DNA of 64,000 bases from an uncultured Bacteroidia bacterium (lineage in GTDB: Bacteria; Bacteroidota; Bacteroidia; Palsa-948), in assembly GCA_964481195.1 (NCBI GenBank), contig CAYZTB010000005.1, positions 10,138 to 74,137 on the forward strand, in the 5' to 3' direction. The translations under genes were made by a program, and so were the position numbers. Below are positions 35,852 through 52,166 of this stretch, piece by piece; position 1 is the stretch's first letter; each line of letters opens with the position of its first letter. The notes beneath the pieces are model-generated. The model saw only the letters and a list, made by a program, of their open reading frames with translations, was not told the origin of the DNA and made no database searches.

Positions 35852-37600
35852 ATGTTACGGACTCATACCTGTGGTGAATTAACCACAAAAAATATTGGAA
35901 ATTCTGTTACGCTTTGCGGATGGATGGCACGCTCACGCGACCTAGGTGGAATGACTTTCATTGATTTACGTGATAGATATGGAATTACTCAGTTGGTATT
36001 TAATATGGAAACCAACAAAGAGCTTTGCGAACAAGCCAGGAAATTAGGCAGGGAGTTTGTTTTAAAAGTTGGAGGAAAAGTTGCTGAACGAAGCAGCAAA
36101 AATTTAAAAATTAGCACTGGAGAAATCGAAATTATTGTAGCTAATTTAGAGATTCTAAATAAGTCCGAAACCCCACCTTTTACCATTGAAGATGACACCG
36201 ATGGCGGTGACGAGTTGCGAATGAAATACCGCTATTTGGATTTAAGGAGAAATTCTGTAAAGCAAAATTTATTGCAGCGCCATAAAGTAGGCCAAGCCGT
36301 AAGAGAATATTTTGACGCACAAGGCTTTGCAGATGTTGAAACACCTTTTTTAATAAAATCTACCCCTGAAGGTGCAAGAGATTTTGTTGTCCCTTCCAGG
36401 TTAAATCCTGGAGAATTTTATGCGCTACCTCAATCTCCTCAAACCTTTAAGCAGCTGCTAATGGTTTCTGGCTTTGATAGATATTATCAAATTGTTAGAT
36501 GTTTTAGAGATGAAGATTTACGAGCAGACAGACAACCAGAGTTTACGCAGATAGATTGTGAAATGAGTTTTGTAGAGCAAGAAGATGTCATGTCCATGTT
36601 TGAAGGTATGGTAAAGCATGTATTTAAAAAAGTACGGGGATTAGAACTTCCTACATTTTCCAGGATGACCTATGCCAATGCGATGAAATATTATGGCATT
36701 GACAAGCCAGATATTCGTTTTGAAATGAAAATTTCTGAGTTGAACGATGTTGTGAAAGGAAAAAAATTCAAGGTTTACGATGATGCTGAATTAATAGGTG
36801 GCATTTGCGCTAAAGGTTGTTCTGAATATACCCGCAAGCAGCTTGATGAACTTACTGAATGGGTGAAACGCCCTCAAATAGGAGCTGGCGGTTTAGGGTA
36901 CATTAAATACAATTCGGATGGAACTTTAAAATCATCCTTTGATAAATTTTTTGATGAGCCATCACTAAAAATAATAGCAGAAAAATTTTCGGCAGTTTCT
37001 GGAGATTTAATCTTGGTTCTTGCAGGAGCAGAAACAAAAACTCGCAAAGCACTAGGTGAATTACGTCTTGAGATGGGAAATAAATTAGGGCTTCGCGATA
37101 AAAATAAATTTGAATGCCTTTGGGTGCTTGACTTTCCGTTGCTTGAGTGGAACGAAGATGAAAAACGATGGTTCGCTATGCATCATCCATTTACATCGCC
37201 ACATAAAGACGATATTGGCTTGTTTAACTCCTTACCAGCTGGCAAGATTTCTCCTCGAGCAAATGCCTATGATGTAGTAATTAATGGTGTTGAAGTTGGT
37301 GGAGGCTCCATCCGAATTCATAATAAAGAGATGCAGCAGCAAATGTTTAAAGTGTTGGGGCTATCTAAGGAGGAAACGGAGCAAAAATTCAGTTTTATAC
37401 TTAATGCTTTTGAGTACGGAGCTCCTCCTCATGGAGGTATAGCTTTTGGCTTTGACCGCTTAAGCTCCATGGTTATTAATAATGAAGATTACATACGAGA
37501 TTACATAGCCTTTCCTAAGAATAATTCAGGGCGCGATGTGATGCTTGACTCTCCTTCTGCCATAGATGATTTACAGAAAAAAGAGTTGGGGTTGAAATAA
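35852..37600 (+). CDS. aspS: Aspartate--tRNA ligase
   Basis: N-terminal OB anticodon-binding fold, class II motifs ([18 protein letters not shown]; GGGSIRIH), 582 aa. Confidence 0.95.
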
Positions 37601-37723: not shown

Positions 37724-39562
37724 ATGTGCGGCATAGTAGCATACATCGGAAATAGGGAAGCATACCCCATATTAATTAAGGGCTTGCAACGGTTAGAATA
37801 CAGGGGTTATGACAGCGCTGGCGTTGCACTCTTAAATTCAAAACTAAATGTTTATAAGTGTAAAGGAAAGGTTTCCGATTTACAAAAGTTTATTGCAAAA
37901 AAAGATATTACTGGCAACATAGGTATTGGGCATACTCGCTGGGCTACACACGGCCCACCCAACGATGTGAACGCACATCCACATTTTTCACAAACAAAAA
38001 ATCTGGTAATTATCCACAATGGTATTATCGAAAATTATGCTCCTATTAAGAAGGAGATGCAAAAGAGAGGACATAAGTTTCAGAGCGATACAGATACTGA
38101 AGTACTGATTCACCTGATTGAGGATATTCAAAAAAATGAGAAAGTACCTCTTGCAGAAGCAGTACGTCAGGCATTAAATGAAGTAATTGGAGCCTATGCC
38201 ATAGTGGTTTTATCAAAAGATAATCCCGATGAATTAATAGCAGCTAAAAAATCAAGTCCCTTAGTTATTGGAATTGGGAAAGATGAATTTTTTGTTGCAT
38301 CAGATGCTACTCCAATTGTAGAGTACACCAAAAACGTAGTTTATTTGGGCGATGAAGAAGTTGCTATTATTCCTAGAAAAGGCAAACTAACTATTAAAAC
38401 TATTAAGAATAAAAAGAAGACTCCTTACATACAAGAGTTGGAATTAAAATTAGAAGCCCTTGAGAAAGGAGGCTTTCCACATTTTATGCTCAAAGAAATA
38501 TATGAGCAGCCGCGTTCTGTGAAAGACAGTATGCGCGGAAGATTAGTTGCCAAAGAAGGAAAAGTTATTTTGGGTGGAATAAAAGAATACGAACAGAAGA
38601 TTATCAACGCAAAGCGCATCATCATTGTTGCTTGCGGAACATCCTGGCACGCAGGTTTAGTTGGAGAGTATTTAATAGAAGATTTGGCTCGCATACCCGT
38701 AGAAGTAGAATATGCCTCTGAGTTTCGCTACAGAAATCCAATTATTGGAGAAGAAGATGTGGTGATTGCCATATCACAATCTGGCGAAACGGCAGATACG
38801 CTTGCAGCAATAGAGCTAGCAAAATCCAAAGGCGCAACTATTATTGGAATCTGCAATGTTGTTGGATCTACCATTCCAAGAACAACGCATGCTGGCTCGT
38901 ATACACATGCCGGTCCAGAAATTGGAGTTGCCTCTACAAAAGCATTTACAGCTCAAATAACACTTTTAACATTAATGGCATTACGCCTAGCCAAAAAGAA
39001 AGGTACTATTTCCCAAACTCGCTATTTTGAACTTTTAAATGAACTGGAAGAAATACCTTCTAAAATCGAAAAAGTTCTTAAGAAGAATGATGAAATAAAG
39101 AAACTTGCTAAAATATTTAAAAACGTACATCACTTTTTATACTTAGGAAGAGGTTATGCTTTCCCCGTTGCACTTGAGGGCGCATTAAAATTAAAAGAGA
39201 TCTCTTACATTCATGCCGAAGGGTATCCTGCTGCTGAAATGAAACATGGACCCATTGCTCTTATTGATAAGAATATGCCCGTAGTGGTAATTGCCACCAA
39301 AGGTGCATCGTATGAAAAAGTAATGAGCAATATTCAGGAAGTAAAAGCCAGAAAAGGAAAAGTAATTGCTATTGTTACTGAAAGAGATAAATCTGCAAAA
39401 CAATATGCAGACTATGTGATAGAAATCCCTGAGACAGACGAAATTCTTGTGCCTCTAATTTCAGTTGTTCCTTTACAACTTTTAGCATATCACATAGCAG
39501 TAATGCGAGGTTGTAATGTTGACCAGCCTCGCAACCTCGCCAAGTCAGTTACAGTTGAATAA
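37724..39562 (+). CDS. glmS: Glutamine--fructose-6-phosphate aminotransferase (isomerising)
   Basis: MCGIVAYIG N-terminal nucleophile, two SIS domains, and the canonical C-terminus CNVDQPRNLAKSVTVE. Confidence 0.95.
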   Translation: MCGIVAYIGNREAYPILIKGLQRLEYRGYDSAGVALLNSKLNVYKCKGKVSDLQKFIAKKDITGNIGIGHTRWATHGPPNDVNAHPHFSQTKNLVIIHNGIIENYAPIKKEMQKRGHKFQSDTDTEVLIHLIEDIQKNEKVPLAEAVRQALNEVIGAYAIVVLSKDNPDELIAAKKSSPLVIGIGKDEFFVASDATPIVEYTKNVVYLGDEEVAIIPRKGKLTIKTIKNKKKTPYIQELELKLEALEKGGFPHFMLKEIYEQPRSVKDSMRGRLVAKEGKVILGGIKEYEQKIINAKRIIIVACGTSWHAGLVGEYLIEDLARIPVEVEYASEFRYRNPIIGEEDVVIAISQSGETADTLAAIELAKSKGATIIGICNVVGSTIPRTTHAGSYTHAGPEIGVASTKAFTAQITLLTLMALRLAKKKGTISQTRYFELLNELEEIPSKIEKVLKKNDEIKKLAKIFKNVHHFLYLGRGYAFPVALEGALKLKEISYIHAEGYPAAEMKHGPIALIDKNMPVVVIATKGASYEKVMSNIQEVKARKGKVIAIVTERDKSAKQYADYVIEIPETDEILVPLISVVPLQLLAYHIAVMRGCNVDQPRNLAKSVTVE

Positions 39563-39571
39563 GATGGGTCT

Positions 39572-39639
39572 GTCAACCCTGAGCATGTCGAAGGGTTGAC
39601 CAGCCTAGTAATCTGGCAAAGAACGTTACTATGGAATAA
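39572..39639 (+). repeat. Hairpin (GTCAACCC/GGGTTGAC) followed by a degenerate in-frame duplicate of the glmS 3' end (encodes VDQPSNLAKNVTME-stop)
   Basis: Read directly from the sequence. Positions 39595-39639 match the last 45 nt of glmS (39518-39562) at about 30 of 45 positions, including an identical 12-mer GTTGACCAGCCT. The stop codon is retained. Confidence 0.6.
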
Positions 39640-39681
39640 AATTCCTTACTCTTTACATACAAAGAGCGTACTTTTTTACCT

Positions 39682-42126
39682 TTGCCCAATATGAAAATCT
39701 CATTTAACTGGCTTAAAAATCATCTTCCACTAGATATTTCTGCTGAAGAAACAGCAGTATTATTAACTGACTGCGGACTAGAAGTAGAAAGTGTAGAAAA
39801 GCACGAATCTGTAAAAGGCGGGTTAGCTGGTTGTGTTATAGGTGAAGTAAAAAGCAAAGAAAAACATCCTGATGCAGATAGATTAAACTTAACAACGGTA
39901 GATACCGGAACTGGCACGTTATTAAATATTGTTTGTGGTGCCGCTAATGTTGCAGTAGGACAAAAAGTTGTGGTTGCCACAGTAGGTAGCACAATCTATC
40001 CTTCAAAAGGCGAACCAATTACACTTAAAAAAGTAAAAATAAGAGGTGCAGTATCTGAAGGAATGATTTGCGCTGAAGATGAGCTGGGCTTAGGAGAATC
40101 TCACGAAGGCATTATGGTTCTTAGCCCTGATGCAAAAATTGGTTCTTCTGCAAAAGGTTATTTTAAAGTTGAGGAAGATTATACCATAGAAATTGGACTA
40201 ACGCCAAATCGTGGTGATGCAGCCTCTCACCGAGGAGTTGCTAGAGATTTGTTTACTGTGCTCAACTGGACATTACAGGAAAATAAATATTCACTAAATA
40301 TTCCATCCGTAGCGCAATTAAAGGTTGGAAATAAAACTGGTAGTATTCAAGTTACGGTTGAAGATGCTGAGGCTTGTCCTCGGTATTCTGGAGTTTCTAT
40401 TACGGGAATTACTGTTAAAGAATCTCCTGATTGGTTAAAGAAAAGATTGTTATCCATTGGGCTTAAACCAATTAATAACATTGTAGATGCAACAAACTTT
40501 ATTTTGCATGATCTTGGACAACCACTACATGCTTTTGATGCAGATAAAATTGCAGGAAATCACGTTATTGTAAAAAAACTAAAAGAAGGAACTAAATTTA
40601 TTTCTTTAGATGGGGTTGAGCGTAAGTTAAGTGCTGAAGATTTAATGATTTGCTCTGCAGAAGAGCCTATGTGTATTGCGGGCGTATTTGGAGGTTTACA
40701 TTCAGGAGTAAGTGGCGTAACAAAAAATATATTTTTAGAAAGCGCTTATTTCTCTTCTGTAACAATCCGAAGATCTTCCAAGCATCATTTGTTAAAAACA
40801 GATGCATCTTTTAGGTTTGAAAGAGGTACGGATCCAACTATTACAACCTATACACTAATGCGTGCCGCTTTGCTTATTCAGGAAATTGCTGGAGGCACCT
40901 TAGCACCAGAAATGATAGATATTTACCCAAATATTATAGAAAATAAAAAGGTGACTTTTTCTTTTTACAATTGCAATCGTCTCATCGGACAAGAAATAAA
41001 CAGAAATAAGATAAAACGAATTTTAGAATTATTAGACATTAACATTATTACCGAAGGCGGGGAAACATTACTGCTATCTATTCCAACCTGTAAATCAGAT
41101 ATTTCCATTGAGGAAGATATTATTGAAGAGATATTAAGAGTTTACGGTTGCAACAACATTGAAATTCCAACAGCTGTACACTCTTCATTATCATATATTT
41201 CAAAACCAGATACCGAAAAAATTAGAAATACAATTTCAGATCAACTATGCGCAAGTGGGTTTACCGAAATAATGTCGAACTCACTTACCAATTCAAAATA
41301 TACTGCTCTTGTTCAAACAGATACTGCAAACACAGTTGAATTACTTAATCCTCTTAGCCCGGAATTAAATGTTTTACGCACCACTCTTCTCTTTAGCGGA
41401 TTAGAAGCAATCGCATATAATCAAAACCGAAAAAATACTGACCTTAAGCTTTTTGAATTTGGAAAAATATATCAGAAATCTTCCAGCAATGGATTTTTTG
41501 AAGAAAACCATTTGGCACTATTTTTATACGGCTCTGCATCGGCAGAAAGATGGTCTGGCAAGCAAGAGCCGGTAAATTTTTATTTACTGAAGGCATTTGT
41601 AGATAATATTTTGGAAAGATTGGCTGTAAATGTTAGCCAAATCTCCGAAATGAGTTCCGATTTTTTTTCATCAGGACTAAGTTACCACGTTAAAAAGAAA
41701 AAAGTTGTTGAGTTCGGATTTGTTAAAAAACAACTTTCAAAATCATTAGATGTAAAGCAAGAAGTTTTTTATGCAGATTTTAACTGGGATGCTGTTGTTG
41801 AGCTAACAAAAGATTCTAAAATAAAATATAAAGAAATTTCTAAATTTCCTGACGTAAGAAGAGACTTAGCTTTGGTAGTTGATAAAAACATAAAGTATGA
41901 TCAACTGGAAAAATTAGCTTTCCAATCAGAAAAAAATCTACTCAAAAAAGTAAATCTATTTGATGTGTACGAAGGGGATAAAATAGAACAAGGCAAAAAA
42001 TCATACGCACTAAGCTTCATCATTCAAAACAACAACGCTACGCTGACCGATTCTGAGGTAGATAAAGTAATACAGAAGCTAATAAAAGTTTATCAGGATC
42101 AAGCTGGAGCAGTCATTCGCTCTTAA
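39682..42126 (+). CDS. pheT: Phenylalanine--tRNA ligase beta subunit
   Basis: N-terminal tRNA-binding domain, B3/B4, B5 and FDX-ACB domains, 814 aa. Confidence 0.95.
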   Translation: MPNMKISFNWLKNHLPLDISAEETAVLLTDCGLEVESVEKHESVKGGLAGCVIGEVKSKEKHPDADRLNLTTVDTGTGTLLNIVCGAANVAVGQKVVVATVGSTIYPSKGEPITLKKVKIRGAVSEGMICAEDELGLGESHEGIMVLSPDAKIGSSAKGYFKVEEDYTIEIGLTPNRGDAASHRGVARDLFTVLNWTLQENKYSLNIPSVAQLKVGNKTGSIQVTVEDAEACPRYSGVSITGITVKESPDWLKKRLLSIGLKPINNIVDATNFILHDLGQPLHAFDADKIAGNHVIVKKLKEGTKFISLDGVERKLSAEDLMICSAEEPMCIAGVFGGLHSGVSGVTKNIFLESAYFSSVTIRRSSKHHLLKTDASFRFERGTDPTITTYTLMRAALLIQEIAGGTLAPEMIDIYPNIIENKKVTFSFYNCNRLIGQEINRNKIKRILELLDINIITEGGETLLLSIPTCKSDISIEEDIIEEILRVYGCNNIEIPTAVHSSLSYISKPDTEKIRNTISDQLCASGFTEIMSNSLTNSKYTALVQTDTANTVELLNPLSPELNVLRTTLLFSGLEAIAYNQNRKNTDLKLFEFGKIYQKSSSNGFFEENHLALFLYGSASAERWSGKQEPVNFYLLKAFVDNILERLAVNVSQISEMSSDFFSSGLSYHVKKKKVVEFGFVKKQLSKSLDVKQEVFYADFNWDAVVELTKDSKIKYKEISKFPDVRRDLALVVDKNIKYDQLEKLAFQSEKNLLKKVNLFDVYEGDKIEQGKKSYALSFIIQNNNATLTDSEVDKVIQKLIKVYQDQAGAVIRS

Positions 42127-42498: not shown

Positions 42499-45400
42499 CT
42501 ACCTAACTACATTTACATTTCCAACATAAATAAACTGTTGGCTAAACACATCTACTAAGCTTACTTTCCAAACATATACGTCTTCTTGCATTAAAATTCC
42601 ACTTTGTCCATTCATATCAGACCCACCAGGTTTAACTATGCCATCCCATTGACAATAAGAAGATAAACCATCTTGACCAGGGCTGTCCCAATCTGTATTT
42701 TTTCCTGTATGATGACAATCCCAAATCATATTTCCCCATCTATCAAATATCCAAATATCGTATTCTTTTATTCCTCTACCCTTTCCAAAGAACATATCAT
42801 TAGTTCCGTCTTTATTGGGTGTAAAGGTGTTAGGTATATAAAAAGTAACTTCTGGCAAGATCTCAATTACTTTAGAAATTGTATCCCAGCAACCATAAAT
42901 GTTTTGAACAGTTAATGTAACCGTATAAGAGTAAAAATTATTCGTAGTGGTGGTTGCTGAATAACTATGAATTGGATCCGTATGCGTACTGTCTAATGAT
43001 GATCCATCGCCAAAATTCCACATCCAATTTGTAACATTGGTTGACCATAAATCACAAAAATTAAATGTTGGGTCTGTGATACTTGCAAAATTTGGAGTCA
43101 CACAAAATTGAGCATCGGGCCAGTCATAAATAGTAATGTATAGTGGAGCAGATATTGAATCTACACAACCATAAGTAGAAGTAACAATTAATGAGGCGTT
43201 GTAACTTCCTGGCTTGCTCCAACAAATTGTAGGATTTTGAGAAGTAGAAAAACTTGGATTACCTCCCGGGAATGACCATTGCCAGCTTGTTATAGTACCG
43301 TCAACTGACGTAGACAAATCAGAAAAAGTTGCGCAGGATGGAGCACATCCTTTTACTGAATCAGAAAATAATGCAATGGGTGACTGGTATATTGTAATTG
43401 CACTTGTTGTAGTATCCTTACAGCCGTTTATGGTTGTTACAATAAGTGTGACCGTATAGGCGCCAGAAGATACATACGTATGAGTTGGATGTTGATTTAT
43501 ATCGTTGGGTGAGCCATCGCCAAAATTCCAATTCCAAGCATTGATAGCATTTCCTGCTTGCGTTGTAGAAGCATCAGTAAAATTAGTTGGCGCATTCAAA
43601 CATCCGCTTTGAGAAACAATTGCAGCAGCAGGAATTGGATATACCTGAATAGGAATAGAAGTAACATTTTGACAACCACTATCAGATGTAACTGTTAAAA
43701 TCACAGAAAAAGTTCCTGATAAACTAAATGCATGACATGGGCTTTGCAATGCAGAAGTATTTGCAATTCCGGTGCTAGGATCACCAAAATTCCAACTCCA
43801 AGAAATAATATTGCCTGGATTTACTGTTGAATTATCTGTAAAACATGTCTGCGATCCAAAACAAACTGACGTAGAAGTAAACAATGCAGTGGGCAAAGGA
43901 TTTACAATTGCAAGAAGTTGAATGGAATCCGAACATCCTTCAGCATTGGACACTGTAAGACTTACAGAAAAAGTACCCGGATTATTATATGTATGTGTTG
44001 GATTTTGTATTGAAGAAGTGTTTCCATCGCCAAAATTCCAGCTCCACTGGATTGGAGCACCTGTTGATAAATCCATAAATACAGTAGGATTATTGAAACA
44101 AACAATGGATGAAGAAAAATTAGCAACCGGACTTGGATTTACTGTAACAGTTTGGCTTATAGTATCTGCACATCCGGTGATTGTTGTTACTATTAAAGTA
44201 ACAGAGTAAGTTCCAGGTGAAGCAAAAATATGAGATGGATTCTGTAGCGTATCGAGCGCACTTCCATCGCCAAAATTCCAGCTCCAAGTAGCAATTGGGT
44301 CGCCTATTTGAGCAACAGTTGAATCAATAAAAAAAGTTGTAGCTCCTATACATACTGGGCCAGATCCAAATGCAGCTGCAGGTGTCAATCCTCCAACACC
44401 TCCAGTAACAGCAACTGTTGCTGTATAAGCAACATTGCAACTAGTTGATGCTGTCACAGTATAATTCCCTGGACATAAACCTGTAATCGTTTGAGTGGTT
44501 TGCCCACCAGGAGACCACATTAACAAATAGTTAACCTGATTACAACAAGCTATAATATTCGCAGTAGCAGTACCATTGCAAGTACCACCACAACCCGTAT
44601 TAGAAGGAGTTGAAGTAACAGTAAAATTTTGAACAACAGTAATTGGAGGTATATCAATTTCAGTTACAAAAGCAGTTCCACATGCATACAATTTATTATT
44701 GGGGCCAAGCTTAACATCTGCACAAGTGTTTGAAAGTGAATAGCTAGCTAACGCCACAAGTGAAGAATCATAAACCTGAACATTACTCCCTATACCAACA
44801 TACACTTTGTCGCATTTATCCACGGATAAACCACCTGAGGAAAACATAATACCTCCCGTATTTACTTGGCTTTTAAATGCTCCGGTATTTTTATTCCATT
44901 TCTTAAGTACGTTACCGTCATAGCTATATAAATTACAATAGCTGCAAGTCATTCCGTTGTACCCATTAGCACGATTTGCAACTCCTCCTACATATGTTAC
45001 GCTGTTCCACTCATAAAAAGAATATCCTGTAGGAACTAAAAAAGTATACGGAGCAAGTGCAGGTATAGGAACTTTAAACATTTCATTACTAAACTGTAAG
45101 CCATGAACCAAGCTACGAGCAGTTGACATGTATGCAAAAGTTCCTAATGGATCGATTGTCAATAATACAATATCATGATAACCAATATTTGTTGTAGCAA
45201 TTGAATTAACTGGAGAAATACTTAATAAATTTGTATCAAGCATACAAGTTTGATTGGAAGTATTTGTTCCTCCTCCCCCAATAACAATTTTATTTGTGCA
45301 ACTATTGTATTCAGCACGCCACATTTCTACAAAAGTAGTTGAACCAGGAAATATTGCAGTTTGTATACCGAGTGTATTCACTTTTAATGCTCTAGATCCA

Positions 45401-46407
45401 ACACCGGCATTGTACCCTTCAACTAAATAACTTGTACCTGTATTTTCATCCACTGTAAAATCTCCATATTGCAGTGGACCTAAACCTGCTGCATTAAACA
45501 CCCATAATAGCGCACCTGCAGGACTAAATTTTGCAAGCTTAAAGGGCGTGTGTGATCCATAAGCGTAAACATTTCCATTCTTATCAAAGTTTACATCATA
45601 AGCAACATTGTATCCAGCAAAAGTTGGGTTTGTAACCCAAGGGTCAATTACTATTGTCTTCTTGTTGTTATAACTATCAACATAAAAAAATAATTCATTT
45701 CCTTTTAGAATATAATTTGACTTTAGAATGGTTTTTTCATTTTCATATGTTGTAATTGGTGCATGATCAACAAAATCGCCAAATAAACTTTTTGAAATAA
45801 TGTCGCCATTTGAATTCAAAACCATTCCTGTGGTATTGGGTAATTGTAATCTAACTTTTGATATATCCGCTCCCGGCCTTACAATTATATTATACTTTAT
45901 GCCCTCCTTATTTTTTGGAAAAAAATATTCTACGTCAATGTTTTTGTAAATATTTTTGTAAATTATTTTACTATAGCCTTTAGCTTTTATTGGATTTCCT
46001 AACGAATCAGCATAGGAATAATAATGCGAAACCTCTTCTTCTGCAATAATGTTTACAGCTGGATTTGCGCCTATCCAATGAGCGCTGTAAAAAAATACTT
46101 CAGAATTAGTTTCAGCCTGCTCATTCTCTTCTTGGTTATCTTCCTTTTTTCTTACAGAGGCTTTATCATATCTGTATGTAATTTCTTCTCTGGTAAAAAA
46201 CACTTCAACGCCCGAACTATTAGTAGAAAATAATATTTGCGAAGAGCCTGTATTGCTTTTTCCATCAAACTGTCCTTTATTTTCTATAAATACCTTATGC
46301 CCAAAAGGATTAGTAGCATCCCATCGTTCCTGACTAATGCCCACCAAAGAAAGTAGGAAGCTTCCAATAAATAAAAAAGACTTGCCATGGAGGTTAATTA
46401 CTCTCAT
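42499..46407 (-). CDS. Large secreted adhesin (paralogue B): signal peptide, beta-propeller-like head of about 600 aa, an SprB-like repeat, five PKD domains, and a T9SS type-B CTD
   Basis: The PKD pattern WSWNFGDG... appears five times. The C-terminus YIPNTFTPNKDGTNDMFFGKGRGIKEYDIWIFDRWGN is a type-B CTD. The last 450 aa are about 75% identical to paralogue C. Confidence 0.8.
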   Translation of the reverse strand: MRVINLHGKSFLFIGSFLLSLVGISQERWDATNPFGHKVFIENKGQFDGKSNTGSSQILFSTNSSGVEVFFTREEITYRYDKASVRKKEDNQEENEQAETNSEVFFYSAHWIGANPAVNIIAEEEVSHYYSYADSLGNPIKAKGYSKIIYKNIYKNIDVEYFFPKNKEGIKYNIIVRPGADISKVRLQLPNTTGMVLNSNGDIISKSLFGDFVDHAPITTYENEKTILKSNYILKGNELFFYVDSYNNKKTIVIDPWVTNPTFAGYNVAYDVNFDKNGNVYAYGSHTPFKLAKFSPAGALLWVFNAAGLGPLQYGDFTVDENTGTSYLVEGYNAGVGSRALKVNTLGIQTAIFPGSTTFVEMWRAEYNSCTNKIVIGGGGTNTSNQTCMLDTNLLSISPVNSIATTNIGYHDIVLLTIDPLGTFAYMSTARSLVHGLQFSNEMFKVPIPALAPYTFLVPTGYSFYEWNSVTYVGGVANRANGYNGMTCSYCNLYSYDGNVLKKWNKNTGAFKSQVNTGGIMFSSGGLSVDKCDKVYVGIGSNVQVYDSSLVALASYSLSNTCADVKLGPNNKLYACGTAFVTEIDIPPITVVQNFTVTSTPSNTGCGGTCNGTATANIIACCNQVNYLLMWSPGGQTTQTITGLCPGNYTVTASTSCNVAYTATVAVTGGVGGLTPAAAFGSGPVCIGATTFFIDSTVAQIGDPIATWSWNFGDGSALDTLQNPSHIFASPGTYSVTLIVTTITGCADTISQTVTVNPSPVANFSSSIVCFNNPTVFMDLSTGAPIQWSWNFGDGNTSSIQNPTHTYNNPGTFSVSLTVSNAEGCSDSIQLLAIVNPLPTALFTSTSVCFGSQTCFTDNSTVNPGNIISWSWNFGDPSTGIANTSALQSPCHAFSLSGTFSVILTVTSDSGCQNVTSIPIQVYPIPAAAIVSQSGCLNAPTNFTDASTTQAGNAINAWNWNFGDGSPNDINQHPTHTYVSSGAYTVTLIVTTINGCKDTTTSAITIYQSPIALFSDSVKGCAPSCATFSDLSTSVDGTITSWQWSFPGGNPSFSTSQNPTICWSKPGSYNASLIVTSTYGCVDSISAPLYITIYDWPDAQFCVTPNFASITDPTFNFCDLWSTNVTNWMWNFGDGSSLDSTHTDPIHSYSATTTTNNFYSYTVTLTVQNIYGCWDTISKVIEILPEVTFYIPNTFTPNKDGTNDMFFGKGRGIKEYDIWIFDRWGNMIWDCHHTGKNTDWDSPGQDGLSSYCQWDGIVKPGGSDMNGQSGILMQEDVYVWKVSLVDVFSQQFIYVGNVNVVR

Positions 46408-46455
46408 TAATTATTGTTTAAAAAAATAGTACTCAAAAAAAGTAATCCGCAATAA

Positions 46456-49400
46456 TTACCTTACCACATTAACATGTCCGATGTATGCATGTCGTTTATT
46501 AAACACATCTATTAATCTTACTTTCCAAACATATACGTCTTCCTGCATTAGTTGGCCGCTTTGTCCGCTCATGTCCATGCCGCCTCCTACTACTTTGCCA
46601 TCCCATTTACAAAATGAACTTAATCCATCTTGTCCGGGGCTGTCAAAATCTGTATTCTTTCCTGTATGTTCACAGTTCCAAAGTAAATTGCCCCAACGAT
46701 CGAATACCCATATTTCATATTCTTTAATACCTCGACCTTTACCAAAAAACAATTCATTCATACCATCTTGGTTGGGAGTAAATGTATTGGGAATGTAAAA
46801 TGTAAACTCTGGTAAAATCTCTATTGTCTTGCTTATGGTATCCCAACATCCATAAATATTTTGTACTGCCAATGAAATAGTAAAATAATAAAAATCATTA
46901 TTTAGTACAGAAAGAGAATAAGAGTGTGCTGGGTCTGTATTGATGCTATCTTTTGGAGAGCCATCACCAAAATCCCACATCCAACTTGTTACACTATTTG
47001 ACCAAAGATCGCAGAAAACAAAATTAGGATCTGTAATTGAAGCAACAGTAGGAGCTACACAGAAATTTGCAACCGGCCAATCATATACCGTTATATAAAG
47101 TGGGGTAGCTACGGAATCTACACATCCGTAGCTTGAAGTAACAATTAAGGAAGCACCATATACTCCGGGTTTGTTCCAACAAACTTTTGGATTTTGTAAT
47201 CCTGAAATTGCTGGGTTTCCTCCAGGGAATGACCATTGCCAAGACGCGATGGTTCCATCTATCGAAGTAGATAAATCATTAAAGGTTGCACAAACAGGAG
47301 CGCATCCTTTTACTGAATCCGAATAAAGTGCAATGGGTGGATTGTATATTACTGCTGTGCTTGTGGTTGTGTCTTTACAGCCCTGTACGGTAGTTACAAT
47401 TAAGGTAATGGTATAAGTTCCTAGCGTTGAGTATGTATGAGATGGATTTTGATTTACATCATTGGGTGATCCATCGCCAAAATTCCAGCTCCAAGCATTT
47501 ATTGGACTGCCTGCAGGAGAAGTAGATGCATCAGTAAATGGTGTTAAAGCATTTAAACAAACATTCTTTGGTGTGATAGCAGCTGTTGGCAATGGATATA
47601 CATTGGCAGGCAACATCGTTGTGCTTTGACATCCGCTATCGGTAGTGGCTGTTAAAATTACGGTGAATGTGCCAGGGCCCGAAAATGTATGACATGGGTT
47701 TTGTGCTGTAGATATATTTGCTGCACCGGATGTTGGATCTCCAAAATTCCAACTCCAACCTGTGATGGTGCCAGGTGTTACAGTGGAAGCATCCGTAAAG
47801 CAAGACTGATTGCCTACGCATACGGGCGTGGAGCTAAATAATGCTAAGGGTAAAGGATTAATTATAGCTAATAAATTTACAGTGTCAACACAACTCGAAG
47901 TGTTAGTAATAATTAAAGTTACCGAATAAGTTCCTGGTGCTCCGTAGGTATGTGATGGGTTTTGCGAAGTTGAAGTGCTGCCATCGCCAAAATTCCAATT
48001 CCATTGTGCAACAGTAGGATTCCCTACAGATTGATCAGTAAATAGAGTTGGGTTATTAAAACAAACAGGTGCAGTTATTGCAGCAGCAACGGGGTCAATT
48101 CCTGCTGACACTATAATTGGTATTATAACCGTATCAATACATCCTTGCTGGGATGTAACAATTAAAGAAACCGAATAAGTTCCTGGAGAATATATAATGC
48201 CAGATGGATTTTGCGATATTGAACTTGTTGGTGATCCTCCAGGGAAACTCCAATTCCATACTACAATTGGAGTACCATTGGGAGTGTAGCTTGAATCTGT
48301 AAATGATACAACTCCACTTCCACAAGTCCCTAAAGGTGTGTAATTAAAATTTGATGTTACTTGCATCGGGGTAGGAACATAAGTAATGTAAAACGGACAG
48401 CCAGATGGTTGTGAAACAAGTACAGCAAAAGTATCGCCTGGCTGAGGGAAAGGAATAATAGTTTGTGAGGTAGAATTTGGAGCACCAGTATATGGTTGTC
48501 CGTTATGAGACCACTGATATGTGTAATTAATTATCGGATCGGTAGGTGCAGTAATTGTTACAGAATTTCCTACACAGTATGATGCAGGATTTGTAGAAAG
48601 TGAACCACATGAGAAATCCCAATATGAATAGCAGTAGTGTCCGCCTAACGCACAATCTGAATTTGTAATTACAACAGTCAAATTTTGACCAACAAAAGCC
48701 GATAGATTTACCCCTTCCAAAGTCCACGGCTTATAAGAAACAATCATGCCAGCCGGAGGATATCCCGGATTTAGCGAACCAGCACAAGATGCTTGAAAAA
48801 AACCATTTCCTACTCCTCCATTTAAGTCCGCAATGTATTTTCTATGACTACAGGGAACAGTATCTCCATTGGCTTTTAAAATATAAATTTCTGAAAATGG
48901 CGCTTCTGCTGCCGTATGCCCACCAGGTGGATTCTCAAGCACTAAAGCATATGCATAAATAAAATTTGTATCCTGTGGTCCAACAGTTAGCGGGTATCGA
49001 AGTTGCTCCGAACATCCGTTTCCAGCTGCACCAACGCCCGGAGGTGGGTATGGCAAACTATTGGCACATCCCCCGTTTAAGCCACTTGTATTTGGTTGCC
49101 CTAATTGAATTGATGCATTTCCAAAACCAGGACAAACTAGAGGTATTGGTGGGCCTGTTGTTCCTTGAGTGCAAGGATCTACTCCGGCACCACTAGTAAG
49201 ATTAAACCGAGGTGTAACAGGTGCAACGGGTGCAAAAAATGTAGGATCAGGTGAGCCTCCTTTCTGGTGAAACCCTGTAGCTGCTGTGTAGCTACTCCAT
49301 CCATTTTCTCCGCCTAAATCACTACATGCTGCAAACGGACTTACAGGTATATTTTTTTTTACGATTGGATTTGTACCAGGAGCACTCTCACCATTTTGTA

Positions 49401-49518
49401 TTTGAATTTTATTAGAAGTAGCTTTGTTAGTAGATTGCGCAAATAAAGTTTGTGTACAAAAAAATGTTACACCAACAATAAAAACAAAGAAAATCCAGTT
49501 TCTGTAATACTTATTCAT
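46456..49518 (-). CDS. Large secreted adhesin (paralogue C): signal peptide, MAM-like head domain, PKD domains, and a T9SS type-B CTD
   Basis: The head contains CSDLGGENGWS...RFNLTSGAGVDPCT...PGFGNASIQLGQP...YKPWTLEGVNL...SYWDFSCG, shared with D and E. The C-terminal cassette is shared with B. Confidence 0.8.
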   Translation of the reverse strand: MNKYYRNWIFFVFIVGVTFFCTQTLFAQSTNKATSNKIQIQNGESAPGTNPIVKKNIPVSPFAACSDLGGENGWSSYTAATGFHQKGGSPDPTFFAPVAPVTPRFNLTSGAGVDPCTQGTTGPPIPLVCPGFGNASIQLGQPNTSGLNGGCANSLPYPPPGVGAAGNGCSEQLRYPLTVGPQDTNFIYAYALVLENPPGGHTAAEAPFSEIYILKANGDTVPCSHRKYIADLNGGVGNGFFQASCAGSLNPGYPPAGMIVSYKPWTLEGVNLSAFVGQNLTVVITNSDCALGGHYCYSYWDFSCGSLSTNPASYCVGNSVTITAPTDPIINYTYQWSHNGQPYTGAPNSTSQTIIPFPQPGDTFAVLVSQPSGCPFYITYVPTPMQVTSNFNYTPLGTCGSGVVSFTDSSYTPNGTPIVVWNWSFPGGSPTSSISQNPSGIIYSPGTYSVSLIVTSQQGCIDTVIIPIIVSAGIDPVAAAITAPVCFNNPTLFTDQSVGNPTVAQWNWNFGDGSTSTSQNPSHTYGAPGTYSVTLIITNTSSCVDTVNLLAIINPLPLALFSSTPVCVGNQSCFTDASTVTPGTITGWSWNFGDPTSGAANISTAQNPCHTFSGPGTFTVILTATTDSGCQSTTMLPANVYPLPTAAITPKNVCLNALTPFTDASTSPAGSPINAWSWNFGDGSPNDVNQNPSHTYSTLGTYTITLIVTTVQGCKDTTTSTAVIYNPPIALYSDSVKGCAPVCATFNDLSTSIDGTIASWQWSFPGGNPAISGLQNPKVCWNKPGVYGASLIVTSSYGCVDSVATPLYITVYDWPVANFCVAPTVASITDPNFVFCDLWSNSVTSWMWDFGDGSPKDSINTDPAHSYSLSVLNNDFYYFTISLAVQNIYGCWDTISKTIEILPEFTFYIPNTFTPNQDGMNELFFGKGRGIKEYEIWVFDRWGNLLWNCEHTGKNTDFDSPGQDGLSSFCKWDGKVVGGGMDMSGQSGQLMQEDVYVWKVRLIDVFNKRHAYIGHVNVVR

Positions 49519-49533
49519 TTTTTTGTATAAATT

Positions 49534-52155
49534 TTACCTTACCACATTAACATGCCCAATATACATGTGTTTTTTATCAAAAATATCAACTAATCTAACT
49601 TTCCAAACATAAACGTCTTCCTGTGCTAGTTGATTGCTACCTCCGCCCATATCAACACCACCTTTTACAACCTTGCCATCCCACTTACAAAACGAAGGCA
49701 ATCCTTCTTGTTTTGGATTAGTGGCATCGTTATCCCAGTTTGTGTTTTTATCTTCGTGATGACAATCCCAAATTTGATTTCCCCATCTATCGAACAACCA
49801 GATATTATATTCTTTAATGCCTCTTCCTTTACCATAAAATAACTCGTTTACAAAATCGCCATTAGGCGTGAATGTATTTGGAATATAAAATGTAAACTCA
49901 GGCATCAACTCTACTATTTTACAAATAGTATCCCAACATCCATACTGATCCTCTACCCTTAAGCACACGTTGAAAGCATAGAAGTCATTTTGCGTAGCTG
50001 TTGCTGAGTAACTATGAATTGGGTCTGTGTTTACATAGTCAGAATCATTATCTCCAAAATTCCAAGACCACGATATTACATTTGAAGTCCACAGGTCACA
50101 AAAATTAAATACCGGATTGGTTACAGGCTGCATAGTCGGAGTTACACAAAAATTTGCTTTAGGACCTGGTACTGTAGAAATCATAGGAAGAGTAAGCGTG
50201 TCCTTACAACCATAGTTAGTTGTAACCAATAAAGTTGCATTATAATTTCCTGGCGTGTAGTAACAAATATTAATAGGATTTTGAGCGGCAGAACCAGTAG
50301 GTGTGCCTCCAGGGAATGTCCATTGCCAATTAACAATATTGCCATCTACTGGCTGAGATAAATCTGTGTAATCATTACAAATTACACCGCAGCCACTATC
50401 AGGAGCAGAGAAATTAGCAAGAGGAGGATTGTAAACAACTACCTGTTGAACTACAGTATCTATACAACCATTTTTAGATGTTACCACTAAAGTAACCATA
50501 TGAGTACCAGCTGTTAAATAGCTGGTAGCTGTATTTTGAGAAGTAGCAGAAGTTGGAGTACCACCCGGCATTGACCAGTTCCAAGCTGTTATCGGATCTC
50601 CTTGCAATCCAACAGAACCATCTGTTAATGATGTAGCATTTCCTAAACATGGCGTTGATGGGGTAAGTGCTGCGGTAGGAAATCCTCCCGTTGTGACAGA
50701 ATGGGTAACATTAGCTGAACACCCATTCGATGCTGTGATAGTTAACGATGCAGTATAATTACCCGGAGGGTATGTTACATTAACAGTAGGCGTAGTTGCT
50801 GTTGCTGGTGAACCGCCAGGAAACGACCAACTATATCCGGTAATATTTGCAGATCCTTGAGGTGAAACAAAGCTGCTATCTTTAAAAATATAATTACCAC
50901 AAACACCCGTAAAATTAAAGTTAGGCAATGCTAGTCCTGGGGCATAAGTAAGATAAAAATTACAACCTGATGGTTGAATAACTTGAAGCTGAAACGTATC
51001 TCCTTGTACTGGGTTAACAACATAGGTTTGGTTAGTTTGACCCGGTACAACTACACCATTATGATACCATTGATAAGTAAATGGATTATTGGGGTCAGAG
51101 ATAGGGCCTGTCATTGTGGAAGTACCACCTATACAGCCTAGAGAAAGAGGTACAGGACCACACTTGAAATCCCAATAGGAGTGAGCATAATGACCACATT
51201 GTGCACAATCCACGTTTGTAATAATAATAGTTAAATTTTGTCCTACATATTGTTTAAGATTTACTCCAACTGTAGTCCAAGGTTTGTATGACGTACTAGT
51301 ACCTCCAAGACATCCTCCTGTTCCTGCAGCAGTAAAAAATCCTGGGAGTGGGCCAGAACCTCCAGGGGCTACATATTTTTGGTAAGAACAATCCACTGTG
51401 TCTCCATTTGGAGCAAGAATTAAAAATTCTGCAAATGGGCGCTGGGTTTGAGAATGCGAAGATCCTGGATCGAATAATACAACCGCATAAGCGTAAACAA
51501 AGTTTGTATCTTGTACAGTAGGAACAAAATTATAAGTCATTTGTTCTACCCAACATCCAGTTTTTTGAGGACATCCAAGTTGCAACGATGCGTTACCAAA
51601 ACCAGGAGCAACTAATGGAATTGTTGGACCAGGGCCACCTCCAATAGGATTAGTTCCGGGAGTACAAGGATCTATTCCAGTACCTGAAGTCATTGTAAAA
51701 CAAGTAGTAGTAGAGTTTGTATTTACAGGAGGGGATACAGAAGCACTCATGGTAGGAATACCTGTAGTACCATTTGTAGTACCCGGTGCACCTGCCCACG
51801 TACTCCATCCGTTTTCAAATCCAACATCACCGCAAGCCATTACAGATGGAGGGTTGCCGGACTTATCTTTTAGCACACTTAGATCTTCTTTGTGTACATT
51901 TTTAAAGTCTTTAAAAAATTGCTTTCTATTGGCTATTAACTTATCAATAACTACAGATGGAACTCCATCTTTTTTCATAACCTCTCTCTCTTTTGCTTCA
52001 TTAAAATATTGGGGAGAAATTCTGTAGTCCCCTAAAAGCTTAGGCTCATTTGATGGATTTGTCTGAGCGTTTGTTGTAGTCGAAATTAACATCGCTACGG
52101 TAAATGCTCCAACAATAATTGAAGCAAACGATAATTTGTTTTTTAATGTATTCAT
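49534..52155 (-). CDS. Large secreted adhesin (paralogue D): signal peptide, MAM-like head, PKD domains, and a T9SS type-B CTD
   Basis: It has the same head-domain motifs as C and E (MACGDVGFENGWSTW; RFN-like; SYWDFKCG). The CTD is YIPNTFTPNGDFVNELFYGKGRGIKEYNIWLFDRWGNQIW. An 11-nt gap to the upstream gene indicates an operon. Confidence 0.8.
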   Translation of the reverse strand: MNTLKNKLSFASIIVGAFTVAMLISTTTNAQTNPSNEPKLLGDYRISPQYFNEAKEREVMKKDGVPSVVIDKLIANRKQFFKDFKNVHKEDLSVLKDKSGNPPSVMACGDVGFENGWSTWAGAPGTTNGTTGIPTMSASVSPPVNTNSTTTCFTMTSGTGIDPCTPGTNPIGGGPGPTIPLVAPGFGNASLQLGCPQKTGCWVEQMTYNFVPTVQDTNFVYAYAVVLFDPGSSHSQTQRPFAEFLILAPNGDTVDCSYQKYVAPGGSGPLPGFFTAAGTGGCLGGTSTSYKPWTTVGVNLKQYVGQNLTIIITNVDCAQCGHYAHSYWDFKCGPVPLSLGCIGGTSTMTGPISDPNNPFTYQWYHNGVVVPGQTNQTYVVNPVQGDTFQLQVIQPSGCNFYLTYAPGLALPNFNFTGVCGNYIFKDSSFVSPQGSANITGYSWSFPGGSPATATTPTVNVTYPPGNYTASLTITASNGCSANVTHSVTTGGFPTAALTPSTPCLGNATSLTDGSVGLQGDPITAWNWSMPGGTPTSATSQNTATSYLTAGTHMVTLVVTSKNGCIDTVVQQVVVYNPPLANFSAPDSGCGVICNDYTDLSQPVDGNIVNWQWTFPGGTPTGSAAQNPINICYYTPGNYNATLLVTTNYGCKDTLTLPMISTVPGPKANFCVTPTMQPVTNPVFNFCDLWTSNVISWSWNFGDNDSDYVNTDPIHSYSATATQNDFYAFNVCLRVEDQYGCWDTICKIVELMPEFTFYIPNTFTPNGDFVNELFYGKGRGIKEYNIWLFDRWGNQIWDCHHEDKNTNWDNDATNPKQEGLPSFCKWDGKVVKGGVDMGGGSNQLAQEDVYVWKVRLVDIFDKKHMYIGHVNVVR

Positions 52156-52166
52156 CTTTGTTTAAT

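What the first reader, a model, noticed from the sequence alone, without database searches (positions are those of the whole stretch)
39563..39639. Degenerate in-frame duplicate of the conserved glmS 3' end just downstream of glmS: possible footprint of site-specific integration at the glmS terminus
Thirty-two nt after the glmS stop there is a second, stop-terminated copy of the last 15 codons of glmS. It reads GTT GAC CAG CCT AGT AAT CTG GCA AAG AAC GTT ACT ATG GAA TAA, encoding VDQPSNLAKNVTME-stop against the authentic VDQPRNLAKSVTVE-stop. About two-thirds of the nucleotides are identical and there is a perfect 12-mer. An 8-bp-stem hairpin (39572-39600) bridges the two copies. The extreme 3' end of glmS is the conserved recognition region for Tn7-like TnsD-directed insertion (attTn7). 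Elements that integrate into gene 3' ends typically carry a replacement end and leave the displaced original end as a remnant. No element is present now; pheT follows at 39682. The remnant therefore suggests an ancient insertion and excision, or a deleted element. Alternatively it is a local tandem duplication.
Basis: seen in the sequence. Interest (0 to 1): 0.55.

Follow-up and report, generated by a model that had tools for sequence, protein, structure and literature searches.

The report
Displaced original end of glmS gene
Just after the essential gene glmS lies the gene's own original last 15 codons, pushed out of use by a 77-base piece of foreign DNA that supplied a substitute gene end plus a small hairpin repeat; similar scars occur independently in two other bacteria, but no mobile element or Tn7 is involved here.

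Summary
Copy B (39595-39639) matches the glmS tail A (39518-39562) at 34/45 nt; the next best 45-mer in the window scores 25/45. Six independent assemblies carry it identically.

It is not a local duplication. B carries the codons typical of this clade (Arg AGR, Ser AGY) and sits in the native context before pheT. The functional tail A uses CGC and TCA instead. Seven single-tail relative lineages all have a B-type tail.

So a 77-nt insertion brought a substitute terminus and a 32-nt spacer. The spacer is 56% GC and holds a REP-like motif, CCCTGAGC..GTCGAAGG, that is otherwise absent from the window. The native tail became an untranslated, decaying relic.

The same architecture (tail, stop, REP-like motif, displaced tail) arose independently in relative L109. 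It also occurs in L155, which belongs to a different phylum.

No integrase, transposase or Tn7 genes or ends are present. The Tn7 link and the vanished large element are not.

The most likely mechanism is short-patch acquisition of foreign glmS-end DNA. The conserved tail would give short homology on one side, and the REP-like element an illegitimate joint on the other. A tiny tail-carrying mobile cassette remains possible.

The parts
37724..39562 (+). glmS (glutamine--fructose-6-phosphate transaminase), 612 aa, functional gene
   Evidence: NCBIfam TIGR01135 E=1.8e-253. An identical protein occurs on 8 contigs.
39518..39562 (+). Tail A: the present functional 3' end (VDQPRNLAKSVTVE*). From 39530 onward (CGC AAC CTC GCC AAG TCA GTT ACA GTT GAA TAA) it is of foreign ancestry.
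   Evidence: Arg603 is CGC and Ser608 is TCA, against AGR and AGY in all 7 single-tail relatives. There is no Ser-family switch at the 19 other conserved Ser positions. CGC, CTC and GCC are minor codons in the window (16%, 4% and 15%).
39518..39529 (+). First copy of the 12-nt direct repeat GTTGACCAGCCT (codons V-D-Q-P). This is the probable left crossover region.
   Evidence: It is identical to 39595-39606 and to the native head of relative L169.
39563..39594 (+). 32-nt foreign non-coding spacer, 56% GC in a 37% GC genome. It contains a REP-like repeat unit whose core CCCTGAGCATGTCGAAGGG spans 39577-39595.
   Evidence: GC content. The motif occurs once in the 64-kb window and in none of the clade relatives' loci. 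The same family lies downstream of glmS in many GC-rich metagenome contigs. The window segment aligns over 89 nt with the L123 tail plus REP.
39572..39600 (+). Hairpin with a 9-bp stem, GTCAACCCT/AGGGTTGAC. Its 3' arm is the head of the displaced tail.
   Evidence: Fold gives dG -18.9 kcal/mol and z -2.9. No comparable hairpin is found in L109 or L155.
39595..39639 (+). Copy B: the displaced native glmS 3' end. It is now an untranslated relic (VDQPSNLAKNVTME*) with three single-base changes away from the invariant peptide.
   Evidence: It matches the functional tail of L169 at 39/45 and those of L167, L110 and L113 at 37/45, whereas tail A matches them at 33-35/45. Only 3 changes restore the coding sequence although B differs from A at 11 positions; P = 2.5e-4 under neutral decay of a local copy.
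39649..39677 (+). Native downstream hairpin CTCTTT/AAAGAG followed by a T-run. This is the probable original glmS terminator.
   Evidence: Fold z -3.2. It was not reported by the consensus terminator scan, so the assignment is inferred.
39677..39684 (+). TACCTTTG, a Bacteroidota-type -7 promoter motif (TAnnTTTG) for pheT. It marks the native context that follows B.
   Evidence: The block ttttttacctttgc followed by ATGaaaat is conserved after the single tails of L167 and L173. Identifying it as the -7 promoter motif rests on my own knowledge.
39691..42126 (+). pheT (phenylalanine--tRNA ligase beta subunit)
   Evidence: NCBIfam TIGR00472 E=1.1e-241. The 811-aa gene call on L081-L084 maps its start to 39691.

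Best explanation
**What it is.** Copy B (39595-39639) is the original, native 3' end of glmS. A 77-nt insertion placed a substitute terminus in front of it. The insertion carries the last 11 codons plus the stop (39530-39562), 32 nt of non-coding DNA with a REP-like repeat unit, and a second copy of the 12-nt head GTTGACCAGCCT. glmS now ends at the substitute stop. The native tail lies in the 3' untranslated region and is decaying.

**Where the inserted DNA came from.** It has a different ancestry from the rest of the gene. It derives from another glmS locus in which this REP-like unit sits directly after the stop codon.

**Most likely mechanism (inferred).** Incoming foreign glmS-end DNA recombined with the resident gene.
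- The left joint used the nearly universal tail sequence as short homology.
- The right joint formed at the 3' arm of the REP-like hairpin. In the window, that position now reads the same as the first tail codons, G(T)TGACCAGCC. The joint was therefore an illegitimate or short-homology joint that landed just upstream of the resident tail.
- Selection explains the outcome. GlmS needs its invariant C-terminus, so only events that bring a substitute tail survive.

**Shown versus inferred.**
- Shown: two tails of different ancestry; B is native; the insertion is absent in relatives; the event recurs in other lineages; no mobile-element genes are present.
- Inferred: horizontal origin from a cellular donor, and the recombination route.
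For: **B is native and A is a replacement.**
- All seven single-tail relative lineages examined (GlmS 88-91% identical) encode the tail as AGA AAY CTN GCN AAR AGY. B fits this pattern and A does not.
- The Ser codon family is unchanged at all 19 other conserved Ser positions in 9 sequences. It differs only at Ser608, and only in the two double-tail genomes.
- After B comes the conserved pre-pheT block that directly follows the single tail in L167 and L173.

**The two tails have different ancestry.**
- A and B are as different from each other (34/45) as tails of unrelated Bacteroidota are (mean 33/45).
- Eight of the 11 A/B differences are of synonymous type.
- Neutral decay of a local copy is rejected at P = 2.5e-4.

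**The patch looks foreign.**
- The spacer is 56% GC.
- A uses the minor codons CGC, CTC and GCC.
- The REP-like core is the only copy in 64 kb and is absent from the clade relatives' loci.
- The core is common downstream of glmS in GC-rich contigs.
- The window patch aligns along 89 nt with the tail plus REP of L123, a 68% GC contig. The match includes the non-coding GA..GGTCTGT and ACCAGCC flanks.

**Short homology exists at the right joint.** The window hairpin's 5' arm implies a donor 3' arm of about GGGTTGACAGACC, against the resident head GTTGACCAGCC. L123 and L121 carry ...CCAGCC at that position.

**The event recurred independently.**
- L109 has its own double tail, while its nearest relatives L112, L165 and L110 (24-32 aa differences) have a single tail.
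- B and B' differ at only 12/45 positions although 4-fold sites differ at 66% (P = 1e-7). Eight of those 12 differences are at third codon positions (my tally from the sequences; divergence figures).
- L155 belongs to another phylum (GlmS 53% identical). All its A''/B'' differences are synonymous.

**No mobile-element genes** occur in the window or around L109. The neighbours of L155 were only listed as ORFs, not scanned against families.
Against: - No donor was identified.
- The left boundary of the patch cannot be resolved, because the clade is about 23% diverged at the nucleotide level. There is no mosaic signal in the GlmS C-terminus.
- In all three cases the foreign part ends at the same place, just after GTCGAAGG(G). 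In the window and L109 the resident part starts at the same codon. This precision is more typical of a site-specific process than of illegitimate recombination.
- Clear microhomology is seen only in the window. It is weak in L155 and not evident in L109.
- The patches of the window and L109 share spacer similarity beyond the REP core (9/14 nt plus TCAA). This suggests a common source family, which a mobile cassette would also explain.
- For L155 the direction (which tail is native) could not be established.
- A second glmS paralogue elsewhere in the same genome, acting as the source of A, cannot be excluded from a 64-kb window.
Confidence: 0.5

Rival explanations
1. A tiny non-autonomous mobile cassette of about 65-100 nt. 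It would consist of a surrogate glmS terminus plus a REP-like unit and would insert specifically at the start of the conserved glmS tail. Mobilisation would be in trans, for example by a REP-associated HUH/Y1 transposase, or the cassette would integrate as a unit through its two head-like ends.
For: - Three occurrences share one architecture: tail, stop, 14-22 nt, CCCTGAGC..GTCGAAGG, displaced tail. The displaced tail abuts the motif every time.
- The window and L109 events are independent, yet their patches share A-type codons (CGC, AAC, TCA, ACA) and spacer similarity.
- The same tail-plus-REP arrangement, starting 2-3 nt after the stop, occurs in the unrelated high-GC contig L123.
Against: - No transposase gene is in the window.
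- The REP-like motif is single-copy in the window.
- In the window the A head equals the B head 12/12, which fits a crossover within resident sequence better than a cassette with its own head.
- The junction in L155 is offset by about 5 nt, and the L109 heads differ.
- The hairpin is not conserved among the three cases.
- L155 was found with a search that required the motif, which is an ascertainment bias.
Confidence: 0.2
2. Remnant (attL/attR scar) of an integrative element that entered the glmS tail by site-specific recombination at a core within GTTGACCAGCCT. The element would have brought a replacement end and later lost almost all of its DNA by deletion.
For: - A replacement end plus a displaced native end flanked by a 12-nt direct repeat is the classic signature.
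- Elements of this kind exist at the glmS end. Viral contigs L091 and L105 carry a roughly 10.6-kb element. It has a resolvase next to glmS and a large serine recombinase at the far end. It supplies ...GTGGAATAA and leaves a displaced ...ACNGTNGAGTAA at its far end. L101 shares the glmS-side junction sequence.
- The glmS-pheT interval is a variable hotspot in this clade.
Against: - Only 32, 57 and about 36 nt lie between the tails in three cases. Three near-total internal deletions that each end at the same motif are implausible.
- No recombinase gene is in the window.
- No second tail was found at a distance in 80 GTDB loci (6-kb flanks) or in the relatives (3-10 kb flanks).
- The repeat is not conserved: the L109 heads share only 7 contiguous nt, and L155 has no clear core.
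- There is no similarity to the L105-type attachment site.
Confidence: 0.15
3. Footprint of a Tn7-like, TnsD-directed insertion at attTn7.
For: The duplicated stretch coincides with the glmS region that TnsD recognises. This rests on established knowledge of Tn7, not on a test here.
Against: - Tn7 inserts about 25 bp downstream of the stop, makes a 5-bp duplication, and neither replaces nor duplicates the tail.
- Excision leaves no such scar.
- No Tn7-like ends or tnsABCD genes are in the window.
Confidence: 0.03
4. Local tandem duplication of the glmS end, followed by drift of the downstream copy.
For: The two copies are adjacent and begin with a perfect 12-mer.
Against: - The differences are overwhelmingly of synonymous type: 3 changes to coding against 11 differences, P = 2.5e-4, and <1e-5 in L109 and L155.
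- The Ser608 TCA versus AGY switch cannot arise by drift of the functional copy while 19 other Ser positions stay fixed across the clade.
- B, not A, matches the relatives.
Confidence: 0.01
5. A conserved functional structure, such as a terminator, attenuator or regulatory RNA, built from the tail repeat and hairpin.
For: The hairpin is stable. Its 5' arm could pair with either the A head or the B head.
Against: - It is absent from all seven single-tail relative lineages examined and from 80 GTDB representatives.
- The hairpin is not conserved in L109 or L155.
- There is no Rfam match.
- B shows inactivating changes at invariant residues.
Confidence: 0.03

Closest known systems
att-site duplications of integrative elements that target the 3' ends of genes. 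Examples from my own knowledge: ICESt1/ICESt3 and their CIME remnants at fda, SGI1 at trmE, SCCmec at rlmH. Example seen here: the serine-recombinase element at the glmS end in L091 and L105, with L101 sharing its junction sequence.
   Same: The target gene keeps a functional end because the incoming DNA supplies a substitute. The original end is displaced downstream as a non-functional relic. A short direct repeat marks the joints.
   Different: Here there is no element and no recombinase. Only 32 nt of non-coding DNA separate the two ends. The displaced piece is 45 nt, against about 14 nt in L105. The repeat is not a conserved core in the other two cases.
Homology-facilitated illegitimate recombination and short-patch double illegitimate recombination, both described in naturally transformable bacteria (de Vries & Wackernagel 2002; Harms et al. 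2016; cited from memory, not read here).
   Same: A short foreign segment is integrated with homology or microhomology at one side and an illegitimate, microhomology-based joint at the other. The result is a small insertion or substitution of foreign ancestry.
   Different: Those are laboratory events at arbitrary loci. Here the scar is natural and fixed, and it sits at an essential gene's invariant terminus. It recurs with nearly the same junction next to a REP-like element.
REP/REPIN-type extragenic palindromic repeats and their role as hot spots of illegitimate recombination (Shyamala et al. 1990; from memory).
   Same: A short conserved motif sits just after a stop codon. It occurs in multiple direct and inverted copies in some genomes (L123, L011). 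It lies exactly at a recombination joint.
   Different: The motif is single-copy in this window and absent from the clade relatives' loci. This motif family was not found in the searchable literature or in Rfam. No RAYT gene was seen.
attTn7 (TnsD-directed Tn7 insertion downstream of glmS)
   Same: It exploits the same extremely conserved glmS terminus.
   Different: Tn7 inserts after the gene without replacing or duplicating the tail. No Tn7 features are present here.

Membership tests
Tn7-like element / attTn7 footprint | Insertion about 23-25 bp downstream of the glmS stop, with a 5-bp target duplication and TGT...ACA ends carrying TnsB-binding repeats | tested here: not met
   The sequence between and after the tails has no such ends. 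The extra DNA begins inside the coding tail.
Tn7-like element / attTn7 footprint | tnsA/B/C/D (or tniQ) genes adjacent to glmS | tested here: not met
   All long ORFs of the window are housekeeping, T9SS-cargo or similar genes. No transposase was found.
Integrative element scar (attL/attR, CIME-like) | Replacement gene end supplied by incoming DNA, with the native end displaced | tested here: met
   Codon-family and context tests.
Integrative element scar (attL/attR, CIME-like) | Element DNA with an integrase or recombinase between the repeats, now or in relatives | tested here: not met
   Only 32 nt lie between the tails. Relatives have single tails, or unrelated cargo without a second tail.
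Integrative element scar (attL/attR, CIME-like) | The same identical core sequence at both joints in independent integrations | tested here: inconclusive
   Identity at the two joints is 12/12 in the window. L109 has a contiguous run of only 7 nt (GATCAGC). L155 has no clear core.
REP/REPIN repeat family | Many copies per genome in extragenic positions, often as inverted pairs | tested here: not met
   One copy in the 64-kb window, even allowing up to 3 mismatches. None in the relatives' loci. The feature is met in L123 (3 copies in 120 nt) and partly in L011.
REP/REPIN repeat family | A cognate RAYT (Y1 transposase) gene in the genome | not testable with these tools
   Only 64 kb of the genome is available, and none was found in it.
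Horizontally acquired short patch (HFIR/SPDIR-type scar) | The inserted segment has a different ancestry from the flanking gene | tested here: met
   The Ser608 and Arg603 codon families, minor codons, a 56% GC spacer, and a REP-like unit foreign to the clade.
Horizontally acquired short patch (HFIR/SPDIR-type scar) | Microhomology at the illegitimate joint | tested here: inconclusive
   Good in the window: the hairpin 3' arm against the head GTTGACCAGCC, with L123 reading GGGTCACCAGCC. Weak in L155 and unclear in L109.
Local tandem duplication | Copies descend from one another, and the differences are random with respect to codon position | tested here: not met
   Simulations give P = 2.5e-4 for the window and <1e-5 for L109 and L155.

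The most novel reading that the evidence does not exclude
A cross-phylum, non-autonomous mini-cassette of about 65-100 nt. It would carry a surrogate end of the essential gene glmS together with a REP-like unit. It would spread by inserting at the start of the invariant glmS tail and would survive because it restores the protein's C-terminus. In effect it would use the conserved gene end as both address and payload.
Probability: 0.2. Interest if true: 0.75.

Novelty: new variant of a known kind. Interest (0 to 1): 0.45.

Why it matters
The finding shows that even the invariant terminus of an essential housekeeping gene can be overwritten by a very short stretch of foreign DNA. The old end stays behind as a datable relic.

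- The relic gives a clean natural marker of short-patch horizontal exchange, a process otherwise almost invisible in genomes.
- Recurrence in independent lineages, each time beside one REP-like repeat family, points in one of two directions. Either these repeats promote illegitimate joints, or there is a previously undescribed minimal mobile unit that targets the glmS end.
- For annotation, the result warns against reading such duplicates as Tn7 or prophage scars.
- The double tail also presents two candidate recognition sites for any glmS-end-targeting element.

Tried and rejected
**Searches that found nothing relevant**
- Rfam search of the whole window at gathering thresholds and of 39450-39750 at E<=10: nothing relevant.
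- tRNA scan: only a distant tRNA-Pro.
- Second tails in 80 GTDB relatives with 6-kb flanks: none.
- glmS tails in IMG/VR: 22 loci and no double tail with a REP-like unit. The scan did reveal a serine-recombinase element at the glmS end.
- BLAST of the patch against plasmids and phages: only glmS tails match, and nothing extends into the spacer.
- Literature search for integrases that target glmS and for the REP-like motif as a text string: nothing useful.

**Tests that were uninformative**
- Mosaic test of GlmS (unique residues and GC3 by segment): no signal, so the left boundary of the patch is unresolved.
- Direction test for L155 using its nearest relatives (83-85% identical): too divergent to decide which tail is native.

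**Ideas considered and rejected**
- Integron attC-type site. The GTTGACC/GTCAAC arms only loosely fit GTTRRRY/RYYYAAC, and the structure is far too short.
- Xer/dif-like site: no similarity.
- Stop-codon read-through into B: the frames differ, and in-frame stops lie in the spacer.
- Assembly chimera: six identical independent assemblies argue against it.

Full report
**1. The observation**

glmS occupies 37724-39562 (612 aa; NCBIfam glmS E=1.8e-253). It lies between aspS (35852-37600) and pheT.
- Its last 45 nt (tail A, 39518-39562) encode VDQPRNLAKSVTVE*.
- After a 32-nt spacer, 39595-39639 (copy B) reads GTTGACCAGCCTAGTAATCTGGCAAAGAACGTTACTATGGAATAA and encodes VDQPSNLAKNVTME*.
- A and B share 34/45 nt, including the first 12. 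The best other 45-mer in the window, on either strand, reaches 25/45.
- The hairpin is real: a 9-bp stem, 39572-39580 pairing with 39592-39600, dG -18.9 kcal/mol, z -2.9.
- The copy is offset by 77 nt, so it is not in frame with glmS.
- pheT most likely starts at ATG 39691.
- The same 221 nt are identical in six independent assemblies of the same population, so this is not an assembly artefact.

**2. Not a recent local duplication**

The C-terminal peptide of GlmS is almost invariant. As a result, any two unrelated Bacteroidota glmS tails share 28-39 of 45 nt, with a mean of 33. A and B are therefore as far apart as tails from different orders.

Their 11 differences fall 3/1/7 on codon positions 1/2/3. 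Only three single-base changes separate B from a sequence that encodes the invariant peptide.

I simulated 11 random substitutions placed in a copy of A. A result that coding-like has P = 2.5e-4. B must have diverged from A while both were being translated as glmS ends, that is, in different genomes.

**3. Which tail is native**

The source genome has no close GTDB relative; the best is 81% GlmS identity, and none of 80 loci has a second tail. A protein search found relatives at 86-92% identity, and I fetched nine of their lineages.
- Seven single-tail relatives encode the tail as AGA AAY CTN GCN AAR AGY GTN ACN GTN GAR TAA.
- B (AGT AAT CTG GCA AAG AAC GTT ACT ATG GAA TAA) fits this pattern. 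It matches L169 at 39/45 and L167, L110 and L113 at 37/45.
- A (CGC AAC CTC GCC AAG TCA ...) matches these relatives at only 30-35/45, which is the background level.

The serine codon family gives the sharpest test.
- At the 19 other Ser positions conserved in all nine sequences, the family (TCN or AGY) never changes.
- At Ser608 the seven single-tail relatives have AGY. The window and L109 have TCA.
- The displaced copies keep AGT (L109) or AAC (window), and AAC is one step from AGC.

Context agrees. After B comes the block ttttttacctttgc..ATGaaaat, which directly follows the single tail in L167 and L173.

So B and everything downstream of it is the original arrangement. The window carries a 77-nt insertion whose coding part replaces the terminus.

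**4. The inserted DNA looks foreign**
- The spacer is 56% GC in a 37% GC genome.
- The first replaced codons (CGC, AAC, CTC, GCC) are minor codons here: 16%, 32%, 4% and 15%.
- The spacer contains CCCTGAGCATGTCGAAGGG. This motif occurs once in the window, even allowing three mismatches, and not at all in the relatives' loci.
- A metagenome scan for a glmS tail followed within 10-40 nt by CCTGAGC...GAAGG returned 51 contigs, mostly GC-rich organisms of other phyla. There the motif behaves as a REP-like repeat, with multiple direct and inverted copies in L123 and degenerate arrays in L011/L122.
- The window segment (tail A, spacer and B head) aligns over all 89 nt with the glmS tail and downstream repeat of L123 (68% GC). 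The match includes the non-coding flanks GA..GGTCTGT and ACCAGCC.
- No Rfam family and no paper in the searchable library matches the motif.

**5. Recurrence**

L109, the closest relative (92% identical), has its own double tail.
- A' reads CGC AAC TTA GCA AAA TCA GTA ACA GTG GAA TGA.
- A 57-nt spacer follows, containing TCAACCCTGAGC...GTCGAAGG.
- B' encodes MDQLRNLAKSVTVE* (AGG AAT CTC GCG AAG AGT ...).

The L109 event is independent of the one in the window.
- L109's nearest GlmS relatives (L112, L165 and L110; 24-32 aa differences) have single tails. The window is 50 differences away.
- Four-fold degenerate sites differ at 66% between the window and L109. B and B' differ at only 12/45 positions (P = 1e-7), and 8 of those 12 are third positions (my tally from the sequences; divergence and P).
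- Each B copy resembles the native tails of its own sub-lineage.
- The two displacements were therefore separate and recent relative to the lineage split.

A third case is L155, which belongs to a Margulisbacteria/Saganbacteria-like lineage (GlmS 53% identical).
- It reads tail, TAA, then 36 nt ending in gCCCTGAGCTTGTCGAAGG, and then GTCAACCGAGAAAT...GAATAA, which encodes QPRNLAKSVTVE*.
- All eight differences between its two tails are synonymous (P < 1e-5).
- Its relatives have single tails but are too divergent to show which tail is native.

In all three cases the displaced tail directly abuts the REP-like motif.

**6. What is not there**

No integrase, transposase, Tn7 gene or Tn7-like end occurs in the window, and none was called around L109. 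The neighbours of L155 were listed only as ORFs. Tn7-type insertion would lie downstream of the stop and would not replace the tail.

Integrative elements that do target the extreme glmS end exist elsewhere.
- In viral contigs L091, L101 and L105, from three different hosts, glmS ends ...GTGGAATAA and is followed by the same sequence.
- In L105 that sequence belongs to a roughly 10.6-kb element. It has a resolvase next to glmS and a large serine recombinase at its far end.
- At the far ends of L091 and L105 lies a displaced ...ATCACNGTNGAGTAA, preceded by the inverted copy of the left junction.
Its anatomy differs from the window in three ways: kilobases of cargo, a 14-nt relic, and a palindromic attachment site.

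**7. Mechanism**

*Shown.* The terminus was replaced by DNA of other ancestry, the native tail was displaced, and the event recurred.

*Inferred.* I favour (about 0.5) recombinational capture of a short piece of a foreign glmS locus.
- The nearly universal tail sequence supplies short homology on the left. The A head equals the native head 12/12, which suggests the crossover lay at or after it.
- The right joint formed at the 3' arm of the REP-like hairpin.
- In the window, the hairpin's 5' arm implies a donor 3' arm of about GGGTTGACAGACC, against the resident head GTTGACCAGCC. L123 and L121 carry ...CCAGCC at that position.
- Selection for an intact GlmS C-terminus filters for events that bring a substitute tail.

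*Against this reading.*
- The foreign part ends at the same motif position in all three cases.
- The window and L109 share the same resident junction codon.
- Their patches share similarity beyond the REP core.

These three points keep alive a tail-carrying mini-cassette (about 0.2). A deleted integrative element is less likely (about 0.15), because three independent near-total deletions ending at the same motif are implausible. Tn7, a tandem duplication and a conserved regulatory structure are each effectively excluded.

**8. Verdict**

The finding is real and well supported as a displaced native gene end created by a short foreign replacement. It is a new variant of a known kind of scar: gene-end replacement with a displaced relic. 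What is unusual is that there is no element, the event recurs, and it is associated with one REP-like repeat family. Interest is moderate. It would be high if the cassette reading proved right.

Noticed in passing
L091:59-200 and the last 200 nt; L105:93-260 and the last 200 nt; L101 (far end not inspected): Three IMG/VR contigs from different hosts share the same sequence directly after the glmS stop. In L105 it belongs to an element of about 10.6 kb carrying a small resolvase, DNA methyltransferases and, at the far end, a large serine recombinase. The far ends of L091 and L105 carry a displaced ...ATCACNGTNGAGTAA preceded by the inverted copy of the left junction (CGAAATTTATTCCA). This looks like a serine-recombinase element that integrates into the last codons of glmS.
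   Followed up: partly
L110:3017-4186; L112:5051-5904; L113:11839 onward; L165:7839-8130; L169:7839 onward: The glmS-pheT interval is a variable hotspot in this clade. L110 has a PIN-domain toxin pair and GC-rich repeats. L112 has a 212-aa ORF with no Pfam hit. L113 has a sigma-54 regulator plus a kdp operon. L165 has small ORFs whose sequence looks RelE/ParE-like by eye. In L169 glmS is followed by a different set of genes. None of these carries a second glmS tail.
   Followed up: partly
window 39677-39693: TACCTTTG, a Bacteroidota -7 promoter motif (TAnnTTTG), lies only 6 nt before the pheT ATG at 39691 and is conserved in L167 and L173. This suggests a leaderless or nearly leaderless pheT mRNA.
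   Followed up: no
L154, L141, L123, L143 and others among L114-L164: The repeat family CCCTGAGC(NN)GTCGAAGGG (and GTCATCCTGAGC..GCGAAGGA) has a constant core flanked in some copies by variable but mutually complementary arms. In other contigs it forms long inverted pairs. It occurs across GC-rich phyla directly after stop codons. I found no Rfam family or paper for it.
   Followed up: partly
L096:270-311 and 13936-13977: A viral contig whose two ends are inverted copies of the same glmS tail and flank. This is probably a fold-back assembly artefact.
   Followed up: no
window 42499-56745 (minus strand) and 4631-7540: A cluster of very large PKD-domain proteins with CHU_C/T9SS type B sorting domains (1302, 1020, 873, 421 and 853 aa). 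An ECF sigma factor gene is embedded at 53434-54015. A further 969-aa PKD/SprB protein lies at 4631-7540.
   Followed up: no
plasmid NZ_CP134388.1:21026-21070 (hit H8): A 28-kb E. coli plasmid record carries an unannotated match to the glmS tail. It may be a cloned or captured attTn7 region.
   Followed up: no
L155:5836-5857 versus L155:5917-5938: In L155 the similarity between the two copies continues about 19 nt past the stop codons (13/19 by my own count). This suggests that donor and recipient were related there, unlike in the window.
   Followed up: no
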